Source: a virus. Taken from it: 64,000 nucleotides of DNA. Below, one piece after another: positions 29,712 through 64,000 of this stretch. Both the position numbers and the translations under genes were made by a program. The stretch lies in the IMG/VR virus record IMGVR_UViG_3300035188_001379, positions 1 through 64,000 of that record, one strand, 5' to 3'. The stretch's first letter is position 1. Every line of letters begins with the position of its first letter. The notes under the pieces were generated by a model. It worked only from the letters and a program-made list of their open reading frames with translations, ran no database searches and was not told the origin of the DNA.

Positions 29712-30064
29712 GATTGCTTACAGAGGGGTATTTACGCGGCTGGCTGACTTTTGAATACCCGAACACTAGTTCCTACGTTCGGGAAGAAATAATCCTCAGC
29801 TATATTGAGGATGAGCGCCTCTATGCGCTTTTAAAAAACAGGTTAAACATGGAGACCGTGCTGAGAAGCACGATGACTTCGAAAAGCAAGAATTTTCTTG
29901 ACCCTGTCTATAAAGTCGCCAACGAGCTCATAGGATTAAAATTGCCTTTGCTTAAGCCAAAAGATAAAATAAAGGATAAAGTCCATCCAGACACAGGTAC
30001 TCCGTATACTCGTGAACAGATAGATGAATGGAAAAAGATGTTAGCTGAGCTCAATAAACAATAA
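29693..30064 (+). CDS. frameshift extension of the tail assembly chaperone (gpT-like part of G-T fusion)
   Basis: -1 frame ORF overlapping the chaperone, with only a TTG start, ending at the tape-measure ATG. Confidence 0.7.
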   Translation: MEGQRVRLLTEGYLRGWLTFEYPNTSSYVREEIILSYIEDERLYALLKNRLNMETVLRSTMTSKSKNFLDPVYKVANELIGLKLPLLKPKDKIKDKVHPDTGTPYTREQIDEWKKMLAELNKQ

Positions 30065-33000
30065 TGGAAAGCGATTTCAACAGTTTTGACCCGTTTGAAG
30101 ATAACTATGAGTATTCTCATATGGGCAGGAATTTTGGTAGTGCCCCGGTTAATGCTGCGATGCATCATTTATTTGGGCGTCACCTATTGCCTCAGCCTCG
30201 TGACGGGCAGGACATGTATGATGCTCTGATTCAAAGAGAGCGTTCCCAGCATTTCATGAATTTACAGAGTTCGAGCTTTTCGAACAATATGCTCAATCAA
30301 GCCATGGGGATTAGCGGTCCTGCTGCTGCAATGATAGGTAGAGTGGCAGGCAGTCCTGACGGAGGATTAGCCCGTATGCTGTCCCCTTTAGTTGGAGGCA
30401 ACCCTATGGCAGCCAGTATGCAAACTTACGCCGGACTGTCTGGAGCCAGCACCATGGGGGCTTTTGGTAGGTTCTCTTCTATCACTGAGGAAGAAACCCA
30501 GGGAGTTATGAACTCTCTAGCCAATAACTTCTATAAAACTCAAAAATTTGAGGGCAAGGGAGGCATAGCTGAAGAATTAAATATTAAAAATCGGGATTTC
30601 TTAAATGCACTTATAGATAAAAATGACGAGAACAGTATTAAGCATTTAAGAGACTCAGGTATTGCTGTAGACACCGATAAGAAAGGAAAAATAAAAGATC
30701 CTGACAAGCTTAAAAAACAAATAGCAGATCTAGACTTTACGTCAGGCTTTAGAGCAGGTGAGGCAGAAGAAATTCAAAAGGCGCAGATTACTTCAGGACT
30801 AGGGCGAGACATGTCTAAAATTCTTAACGAGACAGATGCGACAGTCAAAGCTGCGCTCGAAGAAAGAATGGAGAAAATATTTAAAGCCACAGGTGTTACA
30901 ATCAGTGGTCATGTAAAGTCCGCCCCTTCTACAGCTGAAAAAACAGCAGCAAGGCGAGATCTAGCAGCAGACTTATTTAAATCTCTCGATGATTTGAAGG
31001 CTGCTCCTGAAGCTGAAAAAGCAAAGATCTCTGAGCAGGTTAAGCAGCAGTTCCGTGACCTCGGAATGAGTGAGCAGGCAATTAAAAAGACAACAGATAA
31101 GCAAGGTGTTGTATCTGCAGATGCGGCAACTAGCTTAGCTGAGGAATTTGTATTAAGAGGAGCCTCCAATACCGCAGAGAGTAAAACCGCAGAAAGACGA
31201 GAGCGCGCTTCTGCCCTTTTTAAATCTTTAGAAGCTCTCAAAGCAGCTCCAGCCACCGAAAAAGAGAAAATATCTACAGAGATTAAGCAGCAGTTCCGAG
31301 AGCTAGGAGTAAGTGAGCAAGCCATTAATAAAATAGCCGACAAGAAGGGTGTTGTGGCGACTGACGCAGCAAATAACCTAGCGGAGGACTTTGTTACAGG
31401 TAAGACAGCGACACCAGCAGACAGGACAACAGAGAGACGAGGGCTCGCAACCGAACTATTTAAAACCCTTGACGCACTTAAGACTGCTCCTGAAGCTGAA
31501 AAAGCAAAGATCTCTGAGCAGGTTAAGCAGCAGTTCCGAGAGCTAGGAGTAAGTGAGCAAAGAATAAAGAAAGTATCTGATGAAAAGGGCACTGTGCTAG
31601 CTGACGCAGCTAGTGGTCTTGCCGAAGATTTTGTGATGGGCAGAACAGAGGTAACTCCTGCGGAAAAAGCTGCTGCAAGAAAAGACCTAGCCTCTGACTT
31701 GTTTAAAACCCTCGACGCTCTCAAAGCTGCCCCTGAAGCTGAAAAAGCAAAGATCTCTGAGCAGGTTAAGCAGCAGTTCCGTGACCTCGGAATGAGTGAG
31801 CAGAGGTTGCAGAAAATATCCGATCAACAAGGGATTGTATCAGTTGATGCCGCTAAAAAACTAACAGAAGACTTTGCAGCAGGCAAAACAGACTTTGTAG
31901 AAAAAGAGTCCAAGGAGTCTACGCAGGCCAGAGACGCTATCGCTATCAAGACTGTTAGGAAATCCAAGATACTAGACCTAATGCAAGAGGCTAGTGCGCA
32001 GTTTGAAGAGAGCACTGACACTAGCAAGGCAGGCAAAGAGGATAACAAAAAAGCTAAAGAAAAGTTTGAGCAGACTAGTAAAAATACTTTTAAGCAGCTG
32101 CAATCTGAGACGATGAGTGCTTTGGGTATTACTGAGAAGGAATACGTTCGTCGATACTTAGACAAGGACCAGAACGTAATGATGGATAAGCTAAAAGCCG
32201 ACGTGGAAAAGTCTACTCAGCTTAATAGCGGAGAATCTGCGAGAGTAGCCGCAGACGCTACAGGTGCTTCTGGCTTTAGGCGCAAGGGGGTTAACTTTGA
32301 AAATACCAGAGGTTTCAAGGTAGAAGATTTTACGTCAGCCTTCAGCAAGGCTGCTGAACTTAGGATGCTAGGTGACGCTCGAGGCAAGAGCCCGGAAGAG
32401 ATGATGGACGCATTCTCAAAAAATGCTGGAGGCGTCATGTCTGCTGCACGCTCCCTTTTCGGCAATAAGTCTGGAGGAGAGCTAATGCAAAACTCTAGAG
32501 ATTTGATGGGGCTAACCTCGATGGATCTGTCTTCTGAAGACGGAGCTAAGGATGTAGAAGATATGCTACGCAAAGTTAAGTCTACTGCTCGAGTAGCAGG
32601 GCTTAGTGTAAAGCACATGCTAGGCATCATAGAAGCTACTCGTGATCTCGCCAGAAGCAACCCACAGCTGCAAAACATGAATCAAGGGTCGATCACTAAC
32701 CTAGCTGTAGCCTCTACGATGCACGCAGCTTCTGCTGGCGCAAGAATGAGCTCAGCAGATTTCACGAGTGCTGGAGGAGGACAAGGCATAATGGCAGCCG
32801 AGTCAAAGTCCTCCTTGGCCTTTGCGCAATCCGGTACAGGCAGGTTGATGGCTGTCGCTTTAGGGCAGGCTAAAGCAAAAGGCAGAGAAAAAGAAATGAT
32901 GAAGCTTATCGAAGAAGGTAAATTCGACGCTTCGGCGTTAGCTAGAGGAAGTTACTCTGAGATAGCCTCTGTAGCCGGTTTGAGTACAGGCTCACTTTCG

Positions 33001-34401
33001 TATATGGCGAACGATCCCTTGGTAGCTCAACGCTATATGAAAGATAAAACTATAGCCGACACAGTTACCGGAGCAGCAGGAGATAAGCAAATCGCTAGGA
33101 CTATGTCCAGGGTCATAGCTAGAGGCGTTTTTGGGAAGAGCGGGCAAGAAGAAAAACTAGCAGATCTTTATAAGAAGTCTAAAGAAGCAGGGATGTCTGA
33201 CAGTGATTTCGAAACAAAGTACATAGACCCAAACCTTAATTCAGCTCAGCGCGCCGCCTTTCAAACACATAAAGTTAAGTTTTTCAGAGAAATGAGGGAC
33301 AGAAATCTGCCAGAGCCTGTAAAAAACGCGCTAACTAAAATCAGAGATGCTGATATGGAAGCAGCTAAGAAAACTTCCAAAGAAATGGAAGGAAAGACAG
33401 GCTCACTAGCTTCGCAAGCAATTTCTGCTTTTTTGAATAACGAGGGAATGGACAATATTGGAGATGCTCTCGTCGGGATGTTTGCCACGAACGGAGATGC
33501 CCGTAGCAAAGACTTGAATCAAAAAGCTCAAGACGCAGCTAAAGGGCTGTATGACAGCATTAGAGATAAAGGTAAAGGGACAGACAAAGAAAGGTTAGAT
33601 CGTATAGATGTTAAGGACAATAAGGGTGTCTCTGACCTAGACAGACTAAATCAAGTTATAGATGCGCAGAAAGACCAGGCAATGCAGACTGGAGATACCA
33701 CGCGAGCCTCTAAATTACAGCGTTTAACTAAAAAAGATATAGTTGCGTTGCAAAGGTCTAGCGGCGAGACGACAGCCGAAGGAGCCAAAAAAAGGCTGGA
33801 GGAATTGAGAGCCAGAAAGAACGCTGGCGAAGCTCTTAAACCTGAGCTGCAGCAGCAGATGGAAACTCTGGAGGCACAGGAAAAGCTCACAGGAGGCTTC
33901 ACAAATCAACAAGCCTATGAAGCCGTGTCGTCAAAGAAGATATCAGGGCTGGTAGGAGGGTTGTTGGTAGGAGGCAAAGCTTCTGCAGAAAAAGCCTCGT
34001 TGGAGGAGCGCAAAAAGGCAGCCTTTGCCACGATGGACAGTCAGCTCACAGAGCTGGCTAAAGACGATAAATCTATTGCCGCAGCTCAAGAGTTTTACAA
34101 AGACAAAGGAGGAGCACAGCAGCTTGCTGAAGATTTACAAAAAGGTAAGGGAATGTTTGCGGATAAGGCTACGCGTGATAAATATCGTCAGGGTAGTCTT
34201 GGAGCTATTGTGGAAGGCACAACTTCTGCGATAGCAAAAGAAGAAGAGCGGCTGAAAGGTTCAGGAGAATTACCTGCAGCTGAAGACGCAGCTACTGCAG
34301 GCTTTAAATCCGCCTTAGCTCCTATATTAGAAGCAATCAAAGGAGGAGACTCTCTTAAAGTCGCGATAGAGAAATTAGCGACAGCGATAGGAAGCTTTTA
34401 A
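30064..34401 (+). CDS. tail tape measure protein
   Basis: 1445 aa, Ala/Lys/Gly-rich helical, with internal repeats; follows the G/GT pair. Confidence 0.85.
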   Translation: MESDFNSFDPFEDNYEYSHMGRNFGSAPVNAAMHHLFGRHLLPQPRDGQDMYDALIQRERSQHFMNLQSSSFSNNMLNQAMGISGPAAAMIGRVAGSPDGGLARMLSPLVGGNPMAASMQTYAGLSGASTMGAFGRFSSITEEETQGVMNSLANNFYKTQKFEGKGGIAEELNIKNRDFLNALIDKNDENSIKHLRDSGIAVDTDKKGKIKDPDKLKKQIADLDFTSGFRAGEAEEIQKAQITSGLGRDMSKILNETDATVKAALEERMEKIFKATGVTISGHVKSAPSTAEKTAARRDLAADLFKSLDDLKAAPEAEKAKISEQVKQQFRDLGMSEQAIKKTTDKQGVVSADAATSLAEEFVLRGASNTAESKTAERRERASALFKSLEALKAAPATEKEKISTEIKQQFRELGVSEQAINKIADKKGVVATDAANNLAEDFVTGKTATPADRTTERRGLATELFKTLDALKTAPEAEKAKISEQVKQQFRELGVSEQRIKKVSDEKGTVLADAASGLAEDFVMGRTEVTPAEKAAARKDLASDLFKTLDALKAAPEAEKAKISEQVKQQFRDLGMSEQRLQKISDQQGIVSVDAAKKLTEDFAAGKTDFVEKESKESTQARDAIAIKTVRKSKILDLMQEASAQFEESTDTSKAGKEDNKKAKEKFEQTSKNTFKQLQSETMSALGITEKEYVRRYLDKDQNVMMDKLKADVEKSTQLNSGESARVAADATGASGFRRKGVNFENTRGFKVEDFTSAFSKAAELRMLGDARGKSPEEMMDAFSKNAGGVMSAARSLFGNKSGGELMQNSRDLMGLTSMDLSSEDGAKDVEDMLRKVKSTARVAGLSVKHMLGIIEATRDLARSNPQLQNMNQGSITNLAVASTMHAASAGARMSSADFTSAGGGQGIMAAESKSSLAFAQSGTGRLMAVALGQAKAKGREKEMMKLIEEGKFDASALARGSYSEIASVAGLSTGSLSYMANDPLVAQRYMKDKTIADTVTGAAGDKQIARTMSRVIARGVFGKSGQEEKLADLYKKSKEAGMSDSDFETKYIDPNLNSAQRAAFQTHKVKFFREMRDRNLPEPVKNALTKIRDADMEAAKKTSKEMEGKTGSLASQAISAFLNNEGMDNIGDALVGMFATNGDARSKDLNQKAQDAAKGLYDSIRDKGKGTDKERLDRIDVKDNKGVSDLDRLNQVIDAQKDQAMQTGDTTRASKLQRLTKKDIVALQRSSGETTAEGAKKRLEELRARKNAGEALKPELQQQMETLEAQEKLTGGFTNQQAYEAVSSKKISGLVGGLLVGGKASAEKASLEERKKAAFATMDSQLTELAKDDKSIAAAQEFYKDKGGAQQLAEDLQKGKGMFADKATRDKYRQGSLGAIVEGTTSAIAKEEERLKGSGELPAAEDAATAGFKSALAPILEAIKGGDSLKVAIEKLATAIGSF
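30931..31893 (+). repeat. four tandem 240-243 nt (80-81 aa) repeats in the tape measure (boundaries approximate)
   Basis: TTAAGCAGCAGTTCCG recurs at 31040, 31283, 31523 and 31766; protein unit LFK(S/T)L..LK.AP..EK.KIS...KQQFR.LG.SEQ. Confidence 0.9.
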
Positions 34402-52178: not shown

Positions 52179-52609
52179 GGGCCCGTACTGGTTTCGATCA
52201 AGAAGATGAGTCAAGTAATGCACGTCGAGGAAGTCTGGTTGGCCTCGTTAAAACATCTGGACAAAAACTAAACGCAAACGATCAATCGTTCGCTATGACG
52301 GTAGCTGAAGCTGACGCGCTCTTGAACTCTTTCGAGTTCGAAGCTGCTGAAGCCCTCGCTGCTTAGTCTGCCTGGTGTGGACACTACTAAAGCACTAGGA
52401 AACCGCAGTAGGTTGGGCTAGACTGTAAAGCCTTGTAGAAAAGTACAGCAAGAGCGACTACTTAGAAGTCGATCGGTTCTTACCATCCTAATAAGATGTG
52501 ATTGGTCGCTACATCCAAGACAGCCGTAATTGTCGCTATGTAGATAAACGTGTAGAGTTATTTGATAAAGCTGCTTGAGACAGGGGTTCGACTCCCCTCG
52601 GGTCCACCA
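52179..52609 (+). ncRNA. ssrA: tmRNA (one-piece), tag ANDQSFAMTVAEADALLNSFEFEAAEALAA*
   Basis: The 5' GGGCCCG pairs with CGGGTCC before ACCA and includes the G3.U Ala identity pair. T-arm AGGGG-TTCGACT-CCCCT. Resume codon GCA at 52274 after AAACTAAAC, stop at 52364-52366, tag ending in LAA. Confidence 0.95.
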
Positions 52610-55353: not shown

Positions 55354-55898
55354 AAACGATCAAGCAAATTCTTCAAGATGAAAAAGCTCCGATCACTGCT
55401 CTGCTTTACGCGATAACTAAAGAGTATGGCAGTGAATGCTATTCTTGGGAGCCTCTAGTGCTTAAAGCAGAGCTGCAGAAAGACTATAGCTGTGAGCTCT
55501 CAGATTTACAGTCAGACAAAATTCAGGCAGGAATCACGCTGCTCACTACTGAGCAGTATGAAACCAACATTGCTGTATTTGAGACAATAAATTATTTACT
55601 CAATCATCAGCCTGATAACATCGAAGAGTTCAATCCTCTCGAGCCCGAAGAATTGATCTGCGGGCTTACCGAAGCGTACATTATCAAAGCTGAAGAAATC
55701 AGCTTCAGTCCTGAGGTACGCGTGTACGCAGGACTCATATTCAGAGATTACGGAATGCATCGTCCTCCCAAGCTATTTCCCAAAGCTATCATGGAAGAAC
55801 GCGATGGAAATGATGATGAGAAGAACGAAGCCCTTCAAGAAATATTCGACGAAAAACTCAAACTAGTTGAGCAGTATCTTAAAAAATGCATCCACTAA
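55350..55898 (+). CDS. acidic helical hypothetical protein
   Basis: 182-aa ORF. Confidence 0.6.
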   Translation: MKTIKQILQDEKAPITALLYAITKEYGSECYSWEPLVLKAELQKDYSCELSDLQSDKIQAGITLLTTEQYETNIAVFETINYLLNHQPDNIEEFNPLEPEELICGLTEAYIIKAEEISFSPEVRVYAGLIFRDYGMHRPPKLFPKAIMEERDGNDDEKNEALQEIFDEKLKLVEQYLKKCIH

Positions 55899-57028
55899 AC
55901 AACCCCGCATTGATAGGTAACAATTTCTATTCAAGTCCGGCGTCTGTATCGAACACACATATAGAGTACATTTACAACAAGCTTTTTCATTGCGTACCTA
56001 CTAGATTAGACTTTGCTGACGAGTTTGCTACAAGCTGTCTGGACGTTATTCCGCAGTATTTTGATACGTTCACTTCTTTAATTAACAAGGTAGATACACA
56101 TTTCCTCGAAGAGACTGTATGGATAGGTAAGCCTGGTACAGAGTATGAGCAAGCGATCATCGGTGTAGCCTTCAAGTCTCATGAGAGCAGTATGCCTTTT
56201 AATGTTATAGGCTATCCTCCAAGGACTATAGATAAAGAATTCTTATCTAAGATGTATGTGGGGCTCAAGGCTGTTGTGCGAGATCGCGAGCAAGCCGCAC
56301 TCATATCAAAATTACTAGACGCGCATGTGCTAGAGAAGTGCAGTAAAATGTACGTGTTGTCTAATACTTATGGAGAGCTCAGCCTTTCTGCGCTGCCTAT
56401 AGATAAAATCACTCCAAATATCGCATTAAATTATGGCGACGATTTTGTCAGCGTAAATAACAATATTCTTGAAAGCTTGAGCAATGAGAAGTCAGGGCTG
56501 TACCTGTTCCATGGCGAACCCGGTACAGGTAAGAGCACCTATATTAAATACCTTTGCTCAGGCATATTGTCTCGTAAAATCGCATACATTCCTGTGGGGT
56601 TAATCTCGGCGCTCACATCCCCAGACATGCTTCCTCTTTTGATGGAGCATAAGGATTTGATTATTGTGATAGAAGACGCTGAGCAAGCCTTGATAGCTAG
56701 AGACACAGCCTCAGCAAATTCCCATGTTGTGAGCACTATTCTAAACCTCACAGATGGTTTCCTCGGTGACGCTATGAACACCACCATAGTAGCCACATTC
56801 AATACAGGAAAAGAAAATATTGATGAGGCTCTTTTACGCAAAGGCCGCCTGCGCGTATGCCATGAGTTCAAGAAGCTTTCTATAGATCAAGCCAAGAAGC
56901 TCGCCTCATCTATAGGTCAGGACGAGAATAACGTTACTGAAGGCATGTCTTTGGCTGATATCTACTATATGTCCGCCAATTCCCCTGAATACGCTAAAGA
57001 GGAAGAGCGGCGGGTAGGGTTTCACTAG
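55886..57028 (+). CDS. AAA+ ATPase (single C-terminal AAA domain, BCS1-like)
   Basis: Walker A GEPGTGKS, Walker B IIVIEDAE, ILNLTDG, SRH IDEALLRKGRL. Confidence 0.85.
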   Translation: MHPLNNPALIGNNFYSSPASVSNTHIEYIYNKLFHCVPTRLDFADEFATSCLDVIPQYFDTFTSLINKVDTHFLEETVWIGKPGTEYEQAIIGVAFKSHESSMPFNVIGYPPRTIDKEFLSKMYVGLKAVVRDREQAALISKLLDAHVLEKCSKMYVLSNTYGELSLSALPIDKITPNIALNYGDDFVSVNNNILESLSNEKSGLYLFHGEPGTGKSTYIKYLCSGILSRKIAYIPVGLISALTSPDMLPLLMEHKDLIIVIEDAEQALIARDTASANSHVVSTILNLTDGFLGDAMNTTIVATFNTGKENIDEALLRKGRLRVCHEFKKLSIDQAKKLASSIGQDENNVTEGMSLADIYYMSANSPEYAKEEERRVGFH

Positions 57029-58740
57029 ACCTCAGGAGCTGCTGAGGAGCTAGGACCCAGCAGCCCAGAATCCCCTACAGCCATATAGGCGGCGCAAACA
57101 CAGAATACCAAACTGTGCATTGCGTCGTCTGGCTGTTTAGGGTGATGGTCGTATATAAGCTCTTGCCCATACAAACCGTCTCTTACCTCTACGAATATAT
57201 TCAACAGGTCTTGCATATACTCGGAGACATCACCCCACTGCGGAAAGAGTATTTTTCCTGCTTTGAGCTGTCTGATGACTAGCGAGATAACGTCAGAGCG
57301 ATGCAAGACCCAGCGATTCTGCCTCCAGTCATAAACCCCAGCCTCAAAATGCTGAATCATTTTGGTTCTTCTGTAGGCAGCAAGTTGAGACCTGCTAGGG
57401 CTTGTTAATTCGCATAGTTTGATACCGCGAATAGGATCAGGCCCGCTATCAGATACGCAGAAAGCGTTAACCGCGTTAGCTTTTTCTGCGATGTCTCTGA
57501 TATGCGCCTCATGGTCAAACCCTCGGTACACTTTAGCCATGATGATTTCAAATACCCCGTCAGCTCGCATACCTCCCAAGGTAGCCACTGTACGAGACTG
57601 CGCCATACTTACTCCCCAATCGACTCCCATGGTATACAGTCTGTATTCGCTTTTTCTTTTGTTTAATATCGTTAAATTATTGCTATTACCGCCCTCAAAT
57701 TGCGGACCAAGTGTGCATAGCTTCACCAGCTCTTCTTGTGATATAGGTTTTGACCCTATGTCATAGGTTAATCCGAACGTTTCATTCATCACCACACGGA
57801 TCTCATTCTTACCGCTATGCACTTTCTCATATATTTCCTTCCACTCTTTAGGGTCCTCGTTGAAGTGAGGCAAAAGAGGCTGAGCTAGATGATAGCCTGT
57901 GATTAAATAGTCGCTAGGATTGCAGCTCACCCATTCTCCTTTTCTGGAGTCTAGGCGGGCTAGGCACTTAGAGCAGCTTAGTCCGTGGGGCTGCACCATT
58001 CTTAGCGGCTCGTTACCTTCTGTTAAACTATTCCAGTGTGTACACTTTTCACACTTCATCAGCCACTCGAGCTGATTCGAGCTGCGCCACATTCTATGAA
58101 TAGTATTTGTAGAATCTAGTGGCGTACCTGCAAATATTTCCCGCTTGTAAGGACTCATGGCCATAGTTTCCTGGATAATCGGTATTTGATCGTACTGAAT
58201 ATCCTGGATTTCGTCATAAACGACGCAATCTATAGCCGGTCCGCGAGTACGGGTAGCATCATCACTAACATATCTAAATAACACACTACTATGCGTATCA
58301 TCCAATATTTTTTCAAAGACATCATTTTTAAACCATCCTTTCAACAGCAAATTTTTAATTTTTGGGCTCTCAAACCTAGGGGGTATATAGTTACTTGAAA
58401 AATACTTCGTAGTTAGCTCCTGAGGCCCGACATACATCATTTTGAAATAATTCCACCGAATAAGATTTAAACATACAAAGTTGCTGAGCAGCGTAGACTT
58501 GAGTGTTTTACGGCTGCATTTAAGCAACAATTTCTGAGGCATGTTGTCATAGATATGCTTCAGCATCGGGAAAGCTTCCAGACTTTGCAGTCTACCCTCG
58601 TTATCGTAGAGAAAGTTCTCGACGAAATGCGACGGAGGCAGCACCGAAAACATCAGTTGTCGAGCGAGGAACGTGCTTTTGGGACTATTCTTCTTAAGCA
58701 GTTTCTCTATAGTAGACTTAATTTCATCATGGGCCGTCAT
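57025..58740 (-). CDS. terminase large subunit (lambda gpA-like)
   Basis: KCSRKTLKST deviant Walker A, VVYDEIQD Walker B, FAGTP, CEKC...CSKC Zn finger, MGVDWG and DDAMHS nuclease motifs. Confidence 0.85.
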   Translation of the reverse strand: MTAHDEIKSTIEKLLKKNSPKSTFLARQLMFSVLPPSHFVENFLYDNEGRLQSLEAFPMLKHIYDNMPQKLLLKCSRKTLKSTLLSNFVCLNLIRWNYFKMMYVGPQELTTKYFSSNYIPPRFESPKIKNLLLKGWFKNDVFEKILDDTHSSVLFRYVSDDATRTRGPAIDCVVYDEIQDIQYDQIPIIQETMAMSPYKREIFAGTPLDSTNTIHRMWRSSNQLEWLMKCEKCTHWNSLTEGNEPLRMVQPHGLSCSKCLARLDSRKGEWVSCNPSDYLITGYHLAQPLLPHFNEDPKEWKEIYEKVHSGKNEIRVVMNETFGLTYDIGSKPISQEELVKLCTLGPQFEGGNSNNLTILNKRKSEYRLYTMGVDWGVSMAQSRTVATLGGMRADGVFEIIMAKVYRGFDHEAHIRDIAEKANAVNAFCVSDSGPDPIRGIKLCELTSPSRSQLAAYRRTKMIQHFEAGVYDWRQNRWVLHRSDVISLVIRQLKAGKILFPQWGDVSEYMQDLLNIFVEVRDGLYGQELIYDHHPKQPDDAMHSLVFCVCAAYMAVGDSGLLGPSSSAAPEV

Positions 58741-58882: not shown

Positions 58883-58911
58883 TCTACAAACGATAGCAGC
58901 TATGTTATACT
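58883..58911 (+). promoter_or_regulatory. extended -10 sigma70-like promoter of the right-hand operon
   Basis: TCTACA-17 nt-TATACT with TGn immediately upstream of the -10 element. Confidence 0.5.
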
Positions 58912-58921
58912 CATAGTTGTT

Positions 58922-59101
58922 ATGAGTAAAACGATCCGTAAATACCAGGTTAGAGACAGAAGCAATCAGTATAAGCGCATCGAGAACATGAAGCTTATCG
59001 ATAAGTATTATACTGACGTAGCAAAATCGCATGAGCGAAACATCCAAAAATCCGGATTGCCTCCTGACCAAGGAGGAGAACAGCAACGTTACCCTAGTTA
59101 A
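58922..59101 (+). CDS. possible 59-aa basic protein (absent from the ORF track)
   Basis: MSKTIRKYQVRDRSNQYKRIENMKLIDKYY...; first ATG after the promoter; overlaps the AT-hook ORF by 71 nt. Confidence 0.35.
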   Translation: MSKTIRKYQVRDRSNQYKRIENMKLIDKYYTDVAKSHERNIQKSGLPPDQGGEQQRYPS

Positions 59102-59642
59102 AAAAAGAGGCAGACCAAAAGGCTCAAAGAATAAAATTAAATCTTTTGAGTCTATCAATACCAGCTCTGAGAGTGTTGTAGTGATAAAGCGCGGCAGAGG
59201 CCGACCTCCAGGAGCTAAAAATAAACCCAAGAGCAGCTGCGTTCTCGCAGTTGTCTGCTCTGATACAGATTCTTTGCCCAAGCGCAGAGGAAGACCCAAA
59301 GGATCTAAGAATAAAAATACTCCTTTACGTGAGGAGACAGAGGCTGCCGCTAAGCCGTTAAAAAAACGAGGCAGGCCTAGAAAAGAGCCTGCACCTACTG
59401 ATCAAACTGTTCAGCAGTCTCCTTCTCAGTCCATAGAGTCTGAGATTCATCCATTGCTACAGGCAGCTAAATGGATTGAGAGAAAAATGGAACACCCTGC
59501 ACAAGTAAACTACTATCGGCGCAGGATGGCTAGCATGGGTGCATCCATGCAGGCAGTAATAGCTATAGATATACTAGGCTTATTTAACATAAGCGACAGT
59601 GAGTTACGCAAACAAATCAAATCAACCACAACAGAACAGTAA
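59031..59642 (+). CDS. AT-hook (HMGA-like) DNA-binding protein
   Basis: Four RGRP motifs: KKRGRPKGSKNK, RGRGRPPGAKNK, KRRGRPKGSKNK, KKRGRPRKE. Confidence 0.8.
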   Translation: MSETSKNPDCLLTKEENSNVTLVKKRGRPKGSKNKIKSFESINTSSESVVVIKRGRGRPPGAKNKPKSSCVLAVVCSDTDSLPKRRGRPKGSKNKNTPLREETEAAAKPLKKRGRPRKEPAPTDQTVQQSPSQSIESEIHPLLQAAKWIERKMEHPAQVNYYRRRMASMGASMQAVIAIDILGLFNISDSELRKQIKSTTTEQ

Positions 59643-59644
59643 AT

Positions 59645-61234
59645 ATGGACTTCCTACAAAAAATCGACCTTTATCGTAAAGCCTGCTACGCTGGGCTTGC
59701 AGTATTAACTCATGAAGAGGCCAGGCTTGTTCCGCATCTGAAGATGCTGAAAAATAGTGAGCCTACACTCTCTTTATATGAATGGGACAACCAATCAGGA
59801 CTCACAGGAGGAGTTGTCGATCAAGAAAGATACGCCGTACCGTCCACAGCGTTTCCTAAAGAGGTGTTGCAATATATCCAAAAGCACACGGTAAACAATA
59901 CGATCTTTGTGCTCAAGGATTTTCATCTCGAGTTCGACAGAAGTAACATTCTCCGACTCTTGCGTAATTCTTGGGATTTATTAAAATCTCGGCGCAACAT
60001 GATTATATTTGTGAGTCACAAGTATGCTCTACCTCCTGAGATCGAGAAGGAGGTACAGATTGTTGATTATGATCTGCCAGACGCTGAGGCAATCGAGCAC
60101 CAGTTAAGCTACATTCATGAGTGCACAAATAAAGCCAGAGAAGCAAAGTCACGCCCAGCGTTAAGTATACCTGACGAGATTAAAGACGCAGCTATCGACG
60201 CAGCTAAGGGTATGACCTTTGCAGAGATCGAGAGCGCCTTTTCCTTGGCGATAATTAAAGCCTCTAAATTTGACCAGGTTTTTGTAGAGGCTGTGTTTCA
60301 CGAGAAAATTGCTCACTTGAAAAAGAACGGCTTGCTCACTTATATGGAGCCTAACGTAAGCTTCGATAATGTGGGCGGTCTAGTAGGGCTCAAGACATGG
60401 ATCTCTGCTCGTAAAAAAGCCTATAGTAAAGAGGCCAGAGAATATAATCTACCTATGCCTAAGGGTATGCTGCTAGCCAGCGTCCCAGGCACAGGCAAAA
60501 GTCTTATATGTAAGGCTATTGCAAAAGAGTTCGACTGCCCATTGTTTGCATTAGACATCGGCAGCATTTTTGACTCGCTTGTAGGTAACAGCGAGAAAAA
60601 CATGCGTGAGCTAATCAAAACAGTGAACGGGGTAGGTAGATGCGTGATCTTGATCGACGAGATTGAGAAGAGTCTCAGCAACACCGCAGTTAGCGGCAGC
60701 GGAGACAGTGGTGTAAGCAGCCGTATATTTGGCACGTTTCTTACATGGCTAAACGATAGAACAAATCCTGCGTTTATTGTAGCTACAACAAACGACCATA
60801 CAAAGCTACCTGCAGCTTTGATTCGCAAGGGTCGTTTTGACCAGCTGTTCTGGCTGGACCTGCCTACTCTCGAGGAGCGTAAAGAAATCTTCTCAGTAGT
60901 GATCAAGAAGTATGGCAGGAATGTTAAAGACTTCAGTGTTTCCTCTCATGCGGCCAGCGCAGTTAATTTCACTGGCGCAGAGATTGAAGAGGTGTTTAAG
61001 GACGCTATGTACAAAGCGTTTAATGATAATAAAGATGTGAGCGATAATTATCTTATCGAGGCTCTTGCAGAGTTCATTCCTTTTGCTGTAAGTCACGAGG
61101 AAGATCTGAAGACCATGCGTAGACAAGCTCAAGGAAAACTTGTGATGATTACTGCGAAAGGAGATCCTATCGCAGACGTTCAGAAAAATATGCGCAAACT
61201 TAGTATTGCGATCGGCAGTGACGACGAAGAGTAA
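59645..61234 (+). CDS. Ycf46-like AAA+ ATPase
   Basis: Degenerate N-domain (THEEAR, IFVLKDFH), FDNVGGLVGLKTWI, PKGMLLASVPGTGKS, ILIDEIEK, TNDHTKLPAALIRKGRFD. Confidence 0.85.
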   Translation: MDFLQKIDLYRKACYAGLAVLTHEEARLVPHLKMLKNSEPTLSLYEWDNQSGLTGGVVDQERYAVPSTAFPKEVLQYIQKHTVNNTIFVLKDFHLEFDRSNILRLLRNSWDLLKSRRNMIIFVSHKYALPPEIEKEVQIVDYDLPDAEAIEHQLSYIHECTNKAREAKSRPALSIPDEIKDAAIDAAKGMTFAEIESAFSLAIIKASKFDQVFVEAVFHEKIAHLKKNGLLTYMEPNVSFDNVGGLVGLKTWISARKKAYSKEAREYNLPMPKGMLLASVPGTGKSLICKAIAKEFDCPLFALDIGSIFDSLVGNSEKNMRELIKTVNGVGRCVILIDEIEKSLSNTAVSGSGDSGVSSRIFGTFLTWLNDRTNPAFIVATTNDHTKLPAALIRKGRFDQLFWLDLPTLEERKEIFSVVIKKYGRNVKDFSVSSHAASAVNFTGAEIEEVFKDAMYKAFNDNKDVSDNYLIEALAEFIPFAVSHEEDLKTMRRQAQGKLVMITAKGDPIADVQKNMRKLSIAIGSDDEE

Positions 61235-61261
61235 ACCAACAACCAACCAAAATAAATTAAT

Positions 61262-62266
61262 ATGTCTGACAATAACTACAAAATCACTGACACCCTTCAA
61301 AAGTACTATGACAAGGTTTTTGAAGACGGGAAACTCATGAGTGTTCACATCGGTATGTGGGGTATGGCTGCTAACCTCGTCGAGGAGGATATCAAGCTTA
61401 CCTCTAAACTTCCAGATACTCACAAGCTTGGTAAGAAAATGCTCATCAAGCCTGAGGTGTACAACAGGTTCAAAACAATGGATCAGAAAATCAGGAAGAC
61501 TCTGGAAAAGTCTTCATTCGACTTCCCATTGGCCAAGGCCAACTTCGTACCCAAGTCTAAATATCTTGAGGTGTACACCAAGCTCAACGGTCTGCGTGAT
61601 GAGTATATGCAGATGGTTGAAGAATTCGTAGAAAAATACGAAGACTACAAGAAGGAGGCCATGGACTATTACGAGGAGCACAAAGACACAATCAAGGTAG
61701 AGGATTTAGAAGCCTATTACCCTGCCGCAAACAAAATTCGTAGTAAGTTTTATTGCGACATTGTGTCTTTTGAGGTAAAGATGCCGAAAGAATTCAGTGA
61801 GATCAACCTGCAGGATGAAATTACGCGTGAGCAGATCAACACAGCTGCTCGCGAGAGTGCAGCAGTCAGATACAAAGAAGAGTTCTCGAAGCAGGTTGAT
61901 ATCCATACAGAAAAGCTCAGAAGCTTCATGGAGGAAGCCACCTCTGAACTTCGTACTCGTGTGGCAGAGCACTTCACGGTAGCCCTCGCAAAGATCAACA
62001 AGAGCGAGGTAGTTACTGACAACAGTATTCGTAGAATGTACGAGCAGATTAACGAGTTTCGTGCAGCTAATTTTGCTAACGATACCGCAGTAGAAACTCA
62101 GTTGAACGAGCTTGAGAAGCTGCTAGGAGGAACTAAAGATTTCTCTAAAGATAAAGAGGCTATGAGTGTACTAAAACAGCATCTTGCTAACGTTGTGGAA
62201 GAAGCTAGGAACACTTCAGATGTGTCAGGCGTCAGCGGCCGGTATTTCCGTAATCTTGACGTATAA
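61262..62266 (+). CDS. DUF3150-like coiled-coil protein
   Basis: FVPKSKY..VY.KL..LRDEY..MVEEFVEKY...YP....IRSKF pattern next to the Ycf46-like ATPase. Confidence 0.55.
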   Translation: MSDNNYKITDTLQKYYDKVFEDGKLMSVHIGMWGMAANLVEEDIKLTSKLPDTHKLGKKMLIKPEVYNRFKTMDQKIRKTLEKSSFDFPLAKANFVPKSKYLEVYTKLNGLRDEYMQMVEEFVEKYEDYKKEAMDYYEEHKDTIKVEDLEAYYPAANKIRSKFYCDIVSFEVKMPKEFSEINLQDEITREQINTAARESAAVRYKEEFSKQVDIHTEKLRSFMEEATSELRTRVAEHFTVALAKINKSEVVTDNSIRRMYEQINEFRAANFANDTAVETQLNELEKLLGGTKDFSKDKEAMSVLKQHLANVVEEARNTSDVSGVSGRYFRNLDV

Positions 62267-62562
62267 TGTCTGAAGACTCTAGAGATCTACTGGACCCGCC
62301 AAGGCACGACATGCTAATCGTAAGATTTCATGGCGATGACTTTGATGTGGTATTACCCTACTGCGAGGTTGCTAACGGAGACTTCAACTCTGTAACCGAA
62401 GACAGTATTCACATCACTGTAAATAAAGATAGTAAGACAGAAGCTGTAGCCATGACTTACGCCTCATTTGCAGATGTGGTGGAAAAGACGTTCGATATAA
62501 AAGAAGTCGTAGCTCTAGCAATTCAGCCTAAGGCAAGTTATAACACATTCAAAATACTATGA
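62266..62562 (+). CDS. hypothetical protein
   Basis: 98-aa coupled ORF. Confidence 0.5.
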   Translation: MSEDSRDLLDPPRHDMLIVRFHGDDFDVVLPYCEVANGDFNSVTEDSIHITVNKDSKTEAVAMTYASFADVVEKTFDIKEVVALAIQPKASYNTFKIL

Positions 62563-62951
62563 GTCACAGCGTAAACATCAAAACACAGTTCAAAAACATC
62601 CAAAACCTGCTAGGGCAGTTCACTCAAGCAGGCTGGGCTATCGAGCAAAACACAAAATGCCGCACATATCCTTCCGATCCTAGGCGTGACGAAGTGCATA
62701 CGTATGTGGCTAAGAACCCTAAAAATACTGGGTATGACATAGGGATCGATATTGACTCAGAAGGTAACGCATACTTTGTGTGCGATTTCTTCGACAGCAG
62801 TATTGAAAAACAGCTCGGCCAAAACTTGCAAAATATCAAGCAAGGGTATACATTGACCGAGATTCAGAGGCAGCTAGATGCAGAGAACTTTGCGTACTCT
62901 GTAGAAGAGCTTGCAACTGGAGAGAAAGTCCTAACCGCATACAGAAACTAA
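62559..62951 (+). CDS. DUF1257 / Ycf35-like protein
   Basis: MSHSVNIKTQFKN...GYDIGI...YFVCDFF...IKQGY...GF(AY)SVEE pattern. Confidence 0.7.
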   Translation: MSHSVNIKTQFKNIQNLLGQFTQAGWAIEQNTKCRTYPSDPRRDEVHTYVAKNPKNTGYDIGIDIDSEGNAYFVCDFFDSSIEKQLGQNLQNIKQGYTLTEIQRQLDAENFAYSVEELATGEKVLTAYRN

Positions 62952-62955
62952 CATC

Positions 62956-63243
62956 ATGGAAATTGAAGACAACGGGTTCGAAATCATTAAGTCCAAAGTA
63001 GTCAAAAGCTTAAAAGACTTTTTGATCAAAGATACACTAGCTAAGACAGGTGAAACTCCTGTCGTTTGTGAGATGCACGTGCCTTATCACCAGGTCTCAG
63101 CTGATAAAGATGAGACTGGTACTGCACAGGCGGTAATTACCTATGTGGTAAACTACATCAAAGAAAGAAAGCACACAGTGCGTGTAAAGTTCCAGTATGA
63201 CGCCAAAGGCAAAGTAGATAGAAGCTCGCTTGTATATGTCTAA
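62956..63243 (+). CDS. hypothetical protein
   Basis: 95-aa ORF. Confidence 0.5.
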   Translation: MEIEDNGFEIIKSKVVKSLKDFLIKDTLAKTGETPVVCEMHVPYHQVSADKDETGTAQAVITYVVNYIKERKHTVRVKFQYDAKGKVDRSSLVYV

Positions 63244-63436
63244 AAAAATAGTATTTAAGGTAGGTAAAGACGGTAACGCACAGATTGAATCTGTGGAAGG
63301 CTTCGGCTTTACTTGTTTAGACGCTACTAAATTCCTCGAGCATGCCCTAGGAGCAGCCGATGAGAGCAGCAGACGGTTGACAGACGAATACAATCAGCCT
63401 CTGGACGTTTCTGAGGAGCAGCACCTGCGGCACTAG
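63230..63436 (+). CDS. DUF2997-like protein
   Basis: KKIVFKVGKDGNAQIESVEGFGFTCLDATKFLEHALG...LTDEY. Confidence 0.75.
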   Translation: MYMSKKIVFKVGKDGNAQIESVEGFGFTCLDATKFLEHALGAADESSRRLTDEYNQPLDVSEEQHLRH

Positions 63437-63438
63437 CC

Positions 63439-63690
63439 ATGCTCACGACGATATACATCGACAAGCATGGTGATATAGTAGGTCTTGCTGACGACGTTAT
63501 TGATAAACTTAGGCTAGGTACCAAAGATGTTAAGCGTGTTTCTAACGTGGAGTTTGATCACGCTCAACAGTTATGGGTAGCCACAGACCTTGAAGGCAGG
63601 GTCATAGCGTCAGATCCTATTCGTAGCCGTGTAATAGACCTAGAAAGAGAATATTTCAACAGCTCTATCGAGCTCTCTTTCTCTAAGTAA
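63439..63690 (+). CDS. small protein of a type I associate with DUF1257/DUF2997 clusters
   Basis: IYIDKHG...KRVSNVEFD....LWVA...RSRVIDLE. Confidence 0.5.
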   Translation: MLTTIYIDKHGDIVGLADDVIDKLRLGTKDVKRVSNVEFDHAQQLWVATDLEGRVIASDPIRSRVIDLEREYFNSSIELSFSK

Positions 63691-63703
63691 TTCCCCCACA
63701 AAC

Positions 63704-63738
63704 AGCCTGGCTGGGTCCAATTCCCGGTCAGGCTTTTT
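63704..63738 (+). terminator. Rho-independent terminator
   Basis: AGCCTGGCTGGG / CCCGGTCAGGCT 12-bp stem (two G-U pairs) followed by TTTTATTTT. Confidence 0.8.
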
Positions 63739-63743
63739 ATTTT

Positions 63744-64000
63744 ATGGAAAAAATACGTTTAGAGATACTTTTATTTGACCTTTTAAACCTAGGGCGTGTG
63801 AACATTGTTGAGCTGGTAAAAGACGGCGACATGTACTCGCTGTATGAAAATTATGGAGACAGAGAGTCTTCAGATTTGATTAATCACTGGGTAGAGTCTC
63901 ACAACAACCTAGAGGTTGCGCTAGCCAGATTCGAGGGGCTGGTAGCAGCACTACAAATGATAGGCTATAGGTTACCCAGCAATGGAGAAGAGTTGCAACT
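63744..64000 (+). CDS. hypothetical protein, 3'-truncated (WGR-like arrangement, uncertain)
   Basis: ATG at 63744, open to the window end: MEKIRLEILLFDLLNLGRVNIVELVKDGDMYSLYENYG... Confidence 0.5.
   Translation, partial: MEKIRLEILLFDLLNLGRVNIVELVKDGDMYSLYENYGDRESSDLINHWVESHNNLEVALARFEGLVAALQMIGYRLPSNGEELQ

What the first reader, a model, noticed from the sequence alone, without database searches (positions are those of the whole stretch)
59645..63738. Complete Ycf46-AAA / DUF3150 / DUF1257 / DUF2997 module carried by a phage
Seen: one tightly packed operon closed by a terminator: tandem-domain AAA (degenerate plus active), a long coiled-coil DUF3150-like protein, a DUF1257-like protein, a DUF2997-like protein, a small KRVSNVEFD protein and two unknown ORFs. 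Known: Ycf46 and Ycf35/DUF1257 are conserved in cyanobacteria and algal plastids (Synechocystis slr0374 is in a stress-induced operon), and to my recollection similar clusters occur in Planctomycetota; the mechanism is unresolved. Inference: a multi-component AAA+ machine (ATPase, coiled-coil filament or substrate, small adaptors) used early in infection for membrane or protein-complex remodelling or counter-defence. This is a strong candidate for an uncharacterised system.
Basis: partly seen in the sequence, partly recalled or inferred. Interest (0 to 1): 0.75.

Follow-up and report, generated by a model that had tools for sequence, protein, structure and literature searches.

The report
Phage AAA+ motor with tail-tagged partners
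A 184-kb uncultured phage carries an intact copy of a widespread but unstudied gene set, an ATP-driven protein-remodelling motor with four dedicated partner proteins; the motor and its largest partner end in the same short peptide, which gives a direct way to test how the machine works.

Summary
Seven co-directional genes sit at the stated coordinates: AAA ATPase, DUF3150, a 98-aa ORF, a divergent DUF1257, a 95-aa ORF, DUF2997 and an 83-aa protein. A strong terminator closes them. The operon starts one gene earlier, with an AT-hook protein.

All eight genes are syntenic in 24 related viral contigs. A five-gene core (AAA, DUF3150, DUF1257, DUF2997, 83-aa family) recurs in shuffled order on unrelated phages, a plasmid and bacterial genomes. 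The families co-occur far more often than chance in 301 bacterial genomes (Fisher 3e-10 and 4e-15).

DUF3150 is not a coiled coil. The model shows an alpha/beta domain plus a four-helix bundle. The family ends in a conserved peptide, Y-x-R-[RK]-h-x-h. The ATPase ends in a matching peptide that co-varies with it between lineages.

My reading is a soluble AAA+ remodelling machine whose ATPase and main partner dock through the same tail on a common receptor, probably acting on DNA-bound proteins. The target and the receptor are unknown.

This scan has noted the same module before on other DNA (135 notes, at least 92 genomes). I found no paper describing it.

The parts
58883..58911 (+). Sigma-70-like promoter candidate upstream of the AT-hook gene
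   Evidence: 9 of 12 matches with a TG extension. The number of such sites in the region is not above shuffled controls, so this is weak.
59031..59642 (+). AT-hook protein (203 aa), first gene of the operon; a lineage-specific accessory
   Evidence: Repeated RGRP-type hooks are visible in the translation. Present directly upstream of the AAA gene in all 24 related loci at 28-51% identity. Shorter AT-hook proteins sit upstream in L029 and L030.
59645..61234 (+). Two-tier AAA+ ATPase (529 aa): P-loop-less N-terminal AAA-like half, active classical AAA half, and a C-terminal tail peptide (M-R-K-L-S-I)
   Evidence: PF00004 E 2.8e-28, phrog_8638 E 2e-125 over residues 5-504. Best solved relatives are the D2 domains of Cdc48/VAT/p97, E 1e-43. 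Walker A, Walker B and the SRH arginines are intact; pore loop 1 reads S-L-V-G. N-half motifs. Tail.
61262..62266 (+). DUF3150 protein (334 aa): alpha/beta domain, four-helix bundle, C-terminal tail (F-R-N-L-D-V here; F-R-K-L-S-V in relatives)
   Evidence: PF11348 at 49.7 bits. AF2 pLDDT 91.5. The bundle gives only generic matches, Z about 10. BFVD hits are all uncharacterised phage proteins. Family-wide tail motif.
62266..62562 (+). orf98, lineage-specific accessory protein with no family
   Evidence: No Pfam or PHROG match. Conserved at 40-52% identity in related loci. A gene of similar size sits at the same position after DUF3150 in L030 and L029, where homology was not tested, and none sits there in L033 or L004.
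62559..62951 (+). Divergent DUF1257 (Ycf35-like) protein, 130 aa
   Evidence: Pfam below cut-off. hhalign 94%, E 1e-7 to plasmid DUF1257. Met-Ser-His is invariant, as reported for Ycf35 (PMC13060386). AF2 pLDDT 83, with residues 1-7 disordered. Alpha+beta fold resembling KA1/AMPK-alpha C-terminal domains at Z about 7 only.
62956..63243 (+). orf95, accessory protein with no family
   Evidence: No Pfam or PHROG match. 40-51% identity in relatives; missing in L015 and L016. A homologue is present in L029, and a gene of similar size with a similar C-terminus sits at the same position in L030. Not related to the STIV_B116-like protein that fills the same slot in two distant loci.
63236..63436 (+). 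DUF2997 protein (66 aa from the ATG at 63236; the mechanical ORF starts at the TTG at 63230)
   Evidence: PF11211 at 33.5 bits. Relatives all start at the Met-Ser-Lys-Lys position. One Cys, four Gly and one Arg are invariant.
63439..63690 (+). orf83, the fifth core family (R-[VA]-S-x-[VI]-E motif), no Pfam family
   Evidence: Alignment across distant loci has invariant G, L, G, R, S, W, R and E. hhalign 96% to Rhizobium phage L338C gp054. An HMM finds it next to DUF2997 in six bacterial loci.
63704..63734 (+). Intrinsic terminator closing the operon
   Evidence: 12-bp stem with 8 G-C pairs, followed by a T-run. Sequence read.
63744..64000 (+). First gene of the next transcription unit (116 aa; runs to genome position 64094). 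It carries a tail of the same type (H-R-L-L-D-V; relatives R-K-L-S-I or R-K-L-D-I)
   Evidence: In the whole 184-kb genome only this protein, the AAA and DUF3150 end in the motif, apart from two other ORFs that fit the pattern: a minus-strand ORF at 33261-33509 that lies inside the 1445-aa plus-strand ORF 30064-34401 and that I take to be non-coding, and an 80-aa ORF at genome 103157-103399 with a looser W-K-L-L-D-I match.

Best explanation
This is an intact copy of a conserved five-component AAA+ machine of mobile DNA, extended in this phage lineage by an AT-hook protein and two small accessory proteins.

Shown:
- The motor is a soluble two-tier AAA ATPase. Its N-tier has no P-loop and its C-tier is a catalytically intact classical AAA module.
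- It is inherited together with DUF3150, DUF1257 (Ycf35-like), DUF2997 and an 83-aa protein.
- The DUF3150 family ends in a conserved peptide (Y-x-R-[RK]-hydrophobic-x-hydrophobic, usually at the very C-terminus).
- The ATPase ends in a matching peptide that changes in step with it from lineage to lineage.

Inferred:
- Both tails dock on one common receptor, so the ATPase and DUF3150 are either brought together on a hub or compete for it.
- The most likely receptor is the DUF1257/DUF2997/orf83 set. DUF1257 and DUF2997 always stay adjacent in that order, usually with the 83-aa gene next, and the invariant N-terminus of DUF1257 is unstructured when it is modelled alone.
- ATP hydrolysis in the C-tier then remodels or extracts a client protein.
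- The module sits at the head of the replication and repair block and is preceded by a translationally coupled AT-hook protein. The client is therefore most likely a DNA-bound protein or complex, handled before or during phage DNA replication.
For: Synteny: all eight genes are in the same order in 24 related IMG/VR loci, at 40-70% identity.

The five-gene core recurs in different orders on:
- a Ca. Manganitrophus plasmid;
- Tunturiibacter phage Tunturi_3 (only the AAA and DUF3150 were matched by sequence, the other three are inferred from gene size and N-terminal motifs);
- Rhizobium phage L338C (its DUF3150 slot is held by the unmatched 212-aa gp051);
- four metagenomic contigs;
- six bacterial loci (the AAA lies outside the stretch fetched for L050).

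Co-occurrence in 301 genomes of one bacterial phylum: DUF3150 in 11, DUF1257 in 9, DUF2997 in 12. The overlaps are 7 and 9, giving Fisher p 3e-10 and 4e-15.

Tail:
- R-x-h-x-h occurs in the last 14 residues of 99 of 143 DUF3150 cluster representatives, against 4.9% of internal windows.
- Summed similarity of cognate AAA and DUF3150 tails over seven lineages is 95, against 68 +/- 10 for mismatched pairings; 0.3% of derangements reach 95.
- Five more matching pairs occur in the bacterial loci.
- The one AAA-less variant (L029) has a degenerate tail.

The ATPase catalytic motifs are intact. Homing-endonuclease inserts sit at Walker A or Walker B in relatives, and the flanking exons are kept.

DNA context:
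- Here: terminase upstream; Mre11-like, UvdE and Rad50-like genes downstream.
- L338C: replication initiator-like protein, DnaB and Pol I.
- L031: DNA ligase.
- L030: Rad50-like protein and a helicase.
Against: - No interaction was tested.
- In the AF2 model the first part of the DUF3150 tail motif is a helix packed on the bundle (residues 321-330, pLDDT about 87). Only the last four or five residues may be free.
- Pore loop 1 has Leu where most unfoldases have an aromatic residue (Tyr in Corndog gp96). Processive unfolding is therefore not assured.
- The DNA link rests on gene neighbourhood alone, and phage early regions are rich in DNA-metabolism genes anyway.
- The tail co-variation test rests on seven lineages, and two pairs carry much of the signal.
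- Neither small-protein fold gave a functional clue.
Confidence: 0.55

Rival explanations
1. The module is the unfoldase arm of a ubiquitin-like tagging system. Proteins tagged by the phage's Ubl/E1/JAB genes are recognised by the small partners and extracted or unfolded by the ATPase, as Cdc48-Ufd1-Npl4 does in eukaryotes.
For: - The phage has a ThiF/E1 match about 25 kb downstream (genome 86442-87077), and two related phages have one as well.
- The distant plasmid carrier has a complete PRTRC cassette (ThiF family protein, proteins A, B and C, ParB) about 10 kb from its module, on the same strand, and a JAB gene two genes upstream of the AAA.
- RadC/JAB genes lie within a few genes of the module in L031, L037, G260 and G003.
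- In the bacterial and plasmid clade DUF1257 ends in Gly-Gly plus 0-5 residues in all eight loci, and DUF2997 ends in Gly-Gly plus 0-3 residues in three (L031, L050, L053).
Against: - Tunturi_3 carries the module but has no ThiF match.
- Here the two systems are about 25 kb apart, in different transcription units.
- DUF1257 and DUF2997 of this phage lineage do not end in Gly-Gly.
- RadC and E1-like genes are common on large mobile elements, and I ran no base-rate control.
Confidence: 0.15
2. It is a defence or counter-defence module of mobile elements, for example one that disassembles a host immune complex, or that acts as an abortive-infection effector on plasmids and islands.
For: - It is carried by phages, a plasmid and sporadically distributed bacterial loci; 11 of 301 genomes have DUF3150 and some have several copies.
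- On the plasmid its neighbours include Fic, HNH and JAB genes.
- The AAA half resembles the anti-phage ATPase IetA at E 1e-25.
- Accessory genes vary between lineages.
Against: - No partner matches any PADLOC model, and there is no IetS-like protease.
- The IetA similarity is of the same order as that to any classical AAA protein.
- Within the phage lineage the operon is rigidly syntenic beside replication and repair genes, not in a variable hotspot.
- DUF1257 and DUF2997 are also chromosomal housekeeping-type genes in cyanobacteria and plastids (PMC4284462; the control genome hit).
Confidence: 0.2
3. It is a membrane-remodelling pair like Vps4 and ESCRT-III. DUF3150 would polymerise, and the ATPase would recycle it through its C-terminal motif.
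For: The ATPase belongs to the classical AAA clade. DUF3150 has a helical C-terminal half and a conserved C-terminal peptide, loosely like the MIM motifs of ESCRT-III.
Against: - The DUF3150 model is a globular alpha/beta domain plus a compact four-helix bundle, not an ESCRT-III hairpin.
- Pfam found no MIT domain in the ATPase.
- No protein has a hydrophobic segment in the trans-membrane range.
- The ATPase carries the same tail itself, which Vps4 does not.
Confidence: 0.05

Closest known systems
Cyanobacterial and plastid Ycf46 (AAA ATPase), Ycf35 (DUF1257) and the adjacent DUF2997 gene
   Same: DUF2997 is matched by Pfam. DUF1257 is matched by profile comparison and by the Met-Ser-His N-terminus reported for essentially all Ycf35 proteins (PMC13060386). 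The DUF2997-Ycf35 gene pair is conserved in cyanobacteria (PMC4284462). Both families hit the Synechococcus elongatus control genome. The function of all three is unknown there too; Ycf46 lies in a stress-induced three-gene operon (10.1101/2025.07.21.665879).
   Different: The mobile-element version adds DUF3150 and the 83-aa family, and here also an AT-hook protein, orf98 and orf95. DUF3150 did not hit any of the 14 control genomes, Synechococcus included. I could not fetch a real Ycf46, so neither orthology of the ATPase nor the presence of the tail in Ycf46 was tested.
Cdc48/p97/VAT-type AAA unfoldases with dedicated cofactors
   Same: The active half is most similar to the D2 domains of Cdc48, VAT and p97 (E 1e-43 to 1e-38). 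It has a two-tier layout and comes with several small dedicated partner proteins.
   Different: It has no double-psi-barrel N domain. The first tier lacks a P-loop. Pore loop 1 is not aromatic. None of the partners resembles Ufd1, Npl4, or UBX- or PUB-domain proteins.
Mycobacterial Mpa and Bpa (PafE), which share a C-terminal GQYL motif to dock on the 20S proteasome
   Same: The logic is the same: an AAA ATPase and a non-ATPase four-helix-bundle protein end in the same short peptide. The Mpa/Bpa facts come from my own knowledge, not from a tool. Bpa appears among the generic four-helix-bundle matches to DUF3150 (Z 8.2 and 7.8).
   Different: The peptide is different, and no proteasome-like receptor is encoded here. 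The structural match is no better than to many unrelated bundles. This is an analogy for the mechanism, not evidence of kinship.
ClpX adaptors such as SspB, which tether to the ATPase through a C-terminal peptide
   Same: A short basic-hydrophobic peptide at the extreme C-terminus of a partner protein could tether it to an AAA+ motor. This comparison is from my own knowledge.
   Different: Here the motor carries the peptide too, which argues for a third-party receptor or for self-regulation. There is no sequence relationship.

Membership tests
Classical AAA ATPase (PF00004) | Walker A, Walker B, sensor 1 and second-region-of-homology arginines | tested here: met
   PF00004 at 99.4 bits over residues 275-405. 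The motifs are read in the alignment: P-G-T-G-K-S, I-D-E-I-E-K, T-T-N and R-K-G-R-F-D.
Ycf46-like two-tier ATPase | N-terminal degenerate AAA-like domain followed by one active AAA domain | tested here: inconclusive
   The N-half shows AAA-like strand, 'L-P-D' and lid motifs without a P-loop. A profile of it finds no solved relative. No fold was predicted for it, and none of the libraries holds a Ycf46-specific model.
Ycf46-like two-tier ATPase | Orthology to cyanobacterial or plastid Ycf46 | not testable with these tools
   No Ycf46 sequence could be fetched for comparison.
DUF3150 (PF11348) | Score above the Pfam gathering threshold | tested here: met
   49.7 bits against a cut-off of 24.9. 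94 of 97 homologues carry the precomputed Pfam hit. A family profile finds 2482 cluster representatives.
DUF1257 / Ycf35 (PF06868) | Score above the Pfam gathering threshold | tested here: not met
   15 bits against a cut-off of 22.2. 5 of 26 family members match at E up to 1; the best E-value is 2.4e-5.
DUF1257 / Ycf35 (PF06868) | Profile-level homology to a bona fide DUF1257 protein, and the invariant N-terminal Met-Ser-His | tested here: met
   hhalign 94.2%, E 1.1e-7 over 112 columns to the plasmid protein annotated as DUF1257. M1, S2 and H3 are invariant in 26 sequences. The motif is described for Ycf35 in PMC13060386.
DUF2997 (PF11211) | Score above the Pfam gathering threshold | tested here: met
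   33.5 bits against a cut-off of 24.1, covering profile positions 1-46 of 47.
IetAS anti-phage system | IetA-type ATPase paired with an IetS protease | tested here: not met
   The ATPase matches IetA models only over the AAA core, and scores 76 bits against the 510-bit cut-off of the NCBIfam equivalog. No partner matches any PADLOC model.
Vps4 / ESCRT-III | MIT domain in the ATPase and an ESCRT-III helical-hairpin partner | tested here: inconclusive
   Pfam found no MIT match. The DUF3150 model is an alpha/beta domain plus a four-helix bundle with only generic bundle matches. The N-terminal domains were not searched on their own.

The most novel reading that the evidence does not exclude
DUF1257, DUF2997 and the 83-aa protein assemble into a so far unknown hub or chamber. 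The ATPase and DUF3150 dock on it alternately through their shared C-terminal peptide, as Mpa and Bpa do on the proteasome. Client proteins carrying the same tail, such as the 116-aa protein encoded just after the terminator, are delivered to it. The chromosomal ycf46, ycf35 and DUF2997 genes of cyanobacteria and plastids would then be the reduced housekeeping form of the same machine.
Probability: 0.2. Interest if true: 0.85.

Novelty: new variant of a known kind. Interest (0 to 1): 0.62.

Why it matters
The same five genes occur on many unrelated phages, on plasmids and in bacterial genomes. The DUF3150 profile alone finds 2482 protein clusters. Yet the held literature mentions DUF3150 once, in passing, and never describes the system.

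Two of the partner families are the orphan plastid and cyanobacterial gene ycf35 and its DUF2997 neighbour. Working out the phage machine would therefore probably explain genes that have been unassigned for decades.

The shared, co-varying tail gives a concrete entry point: peptide pull-downs, tail swaps and trap mutants. Cultured carriers exist in which to do this, namely Rhizobium phage L338C, Tunturiibacter phage Tunturi_3 and the cluster O mycobacteriophages.

Tried and rejected
- A clamp-binding reading of the tail: no DnaN-type or gp45-type clamp gene was found in the phage. The motif lacks the usual Gln. I dropped the idea.
- The idea that the ATPase's C-terminal extension holds a DUF2997-like hairpin: hhalign gave no similarity to DUF2997 or orf83. 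The similarity between the N-terminal hairpins of DUF2997 and orf83 is also weak (14% probability).
- orf95 as a STIV_B116-like protein: 2% probability.
- All-against-all profile comparison of the small proteins found no paralogy.
- Foldseek against the PDB gave nothing for DUF1257 or DUF3150. VIA-align gave only middling matches: KA1-like at Z 7 and generic bundles at Z 10.
- Profile searches of solved structures found nothing for the ATPase N-half, orf83 or DUF3150.
- DNA search of the phage collection: no match.
- Locus searches failed with the divergent DUF3150 alignment. Two other DUF3150 proteins found nothing in viral contigs.
- The phage tmRNA tag ends in A-L-A-A, so it is not the module's tail.
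- Corndog gp91-gp94 showed no detectable DUF1257, DUF2997 or orf83 homology.

Full report
**What is there**

The window is the first 64 kb of a 184,465-bp IMG/VR virus record estimated to be 94% complete. At 59645-63690 there are seven tightly packed plus-strand ORFs:
- a 529-aa AAA ATPase;
- a 334-aa DUF3150 protein;
- a 98-aa ORF;
- a 130-aa DUF1257-like protein;
- a 95-aa ORF;
- a DUF2997 protein;
- an 83-aa protein.

A 12-bp, G+C-rich hairpin with a T-run at 63704-63734 closes the unit. The unit really begins with the 203-aa AT-hook gene at 59031-59642, whose stop lies 3 nt before the ATPase start codon. The only promoter-like site, at 58883-58911, is no better than shuffled sequence.

The neighbours are a second small AAA protein and the large terminase on the opposite strand upstream. 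Downstream come a 116-aa protein, a DSP-phosphatase-like protein, an Mre11-like phosphoesterase, UvdE and a Rad50-like ATPase. None of the module's proteins has a hydrophobic stretch in the trans-membrane range.

**Domain assignments**

- AAA: PF00004 E 2.8e-28, and phrog_8638 E 2e-125 over almost the full length.
- The active half is closest to the D2 domains of Cdc48, VAT and p97. Walker A, Walker B, sensor 1 and both SRH arginines are intact. Pore loop 1 has Leu at the usual aromatic position, Met or His in some relatives and Tyr in mycobacteriophage Corndog.
- The N-terminal 230 residues carry AAA-like strand and lid motifs but no P-loop. A profile of them finds no solved relative. 'Degenerate AAA tier' is therefore a reading of motifs, not a tested fold.
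- DUF3150 and DUF2997 pass their Pfam thresholds.
- DUF1257 does not (15 against 22.2 bits). A 26-sequence profile nevertheless matches a plasmid DUF1257 protein at 94% probability. The family also has the invariant Met-Ser-His start that a recent survey reports for essentially all Ycf35 proteins (PMC13060386).

**Is the cluster more than chance?**

Yes, on three lines of evidence.

1. Twenty-four related viral contigs keep all eight genes in the same order. Identity is about 67% for the ATPase, 66% for DUF1257, 58% for DUF3150, 60% for orf83, 55% for DUF2997 and 40-47% for the AT-hook protein, orf98 and orf95. Only orf95 is occasionally missing.

2. A five-gene core (ATPase, DUF3150, DUF1257, DUF2997, orf83 family) recurs in different orders:
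- on a Ca. Manganitrophus plasmid;
- in Tunturiibacter phage Tunturi_3, where only the ATPase and DUF3150 were matched by sequence and the rest is inferred from gene size and N-terminal motifs;
- in Rhizobium phage L338C gp050-054, whose DUF3150 slot is held by the unmatched gp051;
- in four metagenomic contigs.
DUF1257 is always followed by DUF2997, and the orf83-like gene usually comes next.

3. In 301 genomes sampled evenly from the phylum of a Verrucomicrobiia MAG, DUF3150 occurs in 11, DUF1257 in 9 and DUF2997 in 12.
- Seven genomes have both DUF3150 and DUF1257. All nine DUF1257 genomes have DUF2997. Fisher p is 3e-10 and 4e-15.
- All six loci I fetched carry DUF3150, DUF1257, DUF2997 and the orf83-like gene in that order. 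The ATPase follows in five; in L050 it lies outside the stretch fetched.

The literature searches found no description of the system. DUF3150 occurs once, incidentally. DUF1257 or DUF2997 occur in five papers.

**Structures**

- DUF3150 models confidently (pLDDT 91.5, pTM 0.84). It is an alpha/beta domain (about residues 1-190) followed by a four-helix bundle (about 207-333), not a long coiled coil.
- Only the bundle finds matches in the PDB, and they are generic (Z about 10; Foldseek nothing). The alpha/beta domain was not searched on its own.
- In the viral structure library all nine significant matches are uncharacterised phage proteins. One is from Mycobacterium phage Dylan, a relative of Corndog, whose gp96 is a 33%-identical ATPase.
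- DUF1257 models at pLDDT 83 as a small alpha+beta domain. Its best matches are KA1 and AMPK-alpha C-terminal domains at Z about 7, which is within the range of common arrangements.
- The invariant first seven residues of DUF1257 are the only disordered part. That fits a strand that forms only with a partner; this is inference.

**The shared tail**

The most informative feature is at the C-termini.
- In the window's lineage the ATPase ends in a conserved M-R-K-L-S-I followed by a few acidic residues.
- DUF3150 ends in F-R-K-L-S-V (F-R-N-L-D-V in the window itself).
- The 116-aa protein encoded just after the terminator ends in R-K-L-S-I or R-K-L-D-I (H-R-L-L-D-V here).
- In the whole phage the only other ORFs that fit the pattern are a minus-strand ORF inside a 1445-aa plus-strand ORF and one 80-aa ORF with a looser match.

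This is a property of the whole DUF3150 family. Among 143 cluster representatives, 99 have R-x-h-x-h within the last 14 residues, against 4.9% of internal windows. The anchored consensus is [ST]-D-[VI]-[SD]-x-[VI]-T-G-x-Y-[KRF]-R-[RK]-[IL]-x-[LVI], and the chain most often stops right there.

The ATPase tail tracks its own DUF3150 tail:
- x-I-E-V with x-I-E-I in L030;
- N-L-E-I with N-L-E-I in L036;
- R-R-I-A-A with R-R-F-x-L-A-A in three bacterial loci (L051, L052, L054).

Over seven lineages the summed similarity of cognate pairs is 95, against 68 +/- 10 for mismatched pairings; 0.3% of derangements reach it. The one locus that has DUF3150 but no ATPase, DUF1257, DUF2997 or orf83 (L029) has lost the basic-hydrophobic end.

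Earlier agents of this scan reported 'tail-tagged partners' on other genomes. I confirm that independently here, and I add the family-wide statistics and the co-variation.

One caveat applies. In the model the first half of the motif is a helix packed on the bundle, so only the last few residues may be free.

**How it most likely works**

Shown: a soluble, catalytically competent classical AAA motor is inherited with four dedicated proteins, and a docking-type peptide is shared by the motor and its largest partner.

Inferred: both tails bind one receptor. I think the DUF1257/DUF2997/orf83 set is the most likely receptor, for three reasons:
- a receptor would not normally carry its own ligand;
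- DUF1257 and DUF2997 never separate, and the 83-aa gene usually follows them;
- unrelated neighbours also carry the tail.

The logic resembles Mpa and Bpa, which share a C-terminal motif to dock on the mycobacterial proteasome, or adaptor tails that tether to ClpX. Both comparisons come from my own knowledge and are analogies only.

The client is unknown. Two things point to a DNA-bound protein, but that is neighbourhood evidence only:
- the AT-hook gene is translationally coupled to the ATPase gene;
- replication, recombination and ligase genes repeatedly neighbour the module.

**Rivals**

- Link to ubiquitin-like tagging. This is a real lead. The phage, two of its relatives and the distant plasmid all have E1-type genes; the plasmid's is a complete PRTRC cassette 10 kb from the module. 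RadC/JAB genes neighbour the module in five distant loci. In the bacterial and plasmid clade DUF1257 ends in Gly-Gly, and so does DUF2997 in three loci. Against it: Tunturi_3 has no E1 match, this phage's versions lack Gly-Gly, and I ran no base-rate control.
- Defence or counter-defence. This fits the mobile, patchy distribution, but no model in PADLOC supports it.
- Membrane remodelling. I found no support.

**Verdict**

The module is a conserved, undescribed AAA+ system. It is not unique to this window, because the scan has flagged it on at least 92 other genomes. I class it as a new variant of a known kind (an AAA+ remodeller with dedicated cofactors), with a concrete and testable handle in the shared tail.

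Noticed in passing
L024-L026 (about 8020-8830), L027/L028 (about 5940-7000), L033/L034, L037: In several relatives the ATPase gene is split by an insert of 0.8-1.1 kb that encodes an HNH-type or other homing-endonuclease-like ORF. The insert sits exactly at Walker B (after V-I-L-I-D) or at Walker A (after P-G-T-G), and both flanking exons are conserved. This looks like mobile introns targeting the catalytic motifs.
   Followed up: partly
L004, L031, L049-L054 (plasmid and bacterial loci): In the bacterial and plasmid clade DUF1257 ends in Gly-Gly plus 0-5 residues in all eight loci. DUF2997 ends in Gly-Gly plus 0-3 residues in three (L031, L050, L053). In four loci the ATPase (L051, L052, L054) and DUF3150 (L050, L051, L052, L054) end in Ala-Ala. 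RadC/JAB genes are often adjacent. This hints at C-terminal processing or conjugation. It is not seen in the window's phage lineage.
   Followed up: partly
L029 (NCBI MAG contig, 10 kb): A reduced variant beside the same terminase. It has an AT-hook protein, DUF3150 and an orf95 homologue, with a 102-aa gene in the orf98 position, but no ATPase, DUF1257, DUF2997 or orf83. Its DUF3150 has lost the basic-hydrophobic C-terminal end.
   Followed up: partly
window 63744-64000 (to genome 64094) and the next gene at genome 64091-64642: The 116-aa protein after the terminator carries the module's tail motif. It is followed by a dual-specificity-phosphatase-like gene (PF00782, E 4e-6, below cut-off).
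   Followed up: partly
window 55886-57028: A second, smaller AAA protein (380 aa, PF00004 E 1e-10) lies just upstream of the oppositely oriented terminase gene (57025-58740).
   Followed up: no
L043 (plasmid CP114559.1, record 115220-121080): The Ca. Manganitrophus plasmid that carries the module also has a complete PRTRC cassette (ThiF family protein, proteins A, B and C, ParB) about 10 kb away on the same strand.
   Followed up: partly
L003 (Tunturiibacter phage Tunturi_3, gp96): The gene annotated 'HNH endonuclease' (gp96) is in fact the DUF3150 homologue of that phage's module. This is probably a mis-annotation.
   Followed up: partly
window 52179-52609: A phage-encoded tmRNA with a 30-residue tag ending A-L-A-A (ARAGORN). 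The tag end is the ordinary ClpXP type and is unrelated to the module's tail.
   Followed up: partly
G229 (bacterial genome, several places on contig C1): One genome has seven DUF3150 matches of the canonical Pfam type (up to 307 bits), three of them near-identical copies, and no DUF1257 or DUF2997 match. This suggests a separate, multi-copy DUF3150 subfamily that travels without the rest of the module.
   Followed up: no
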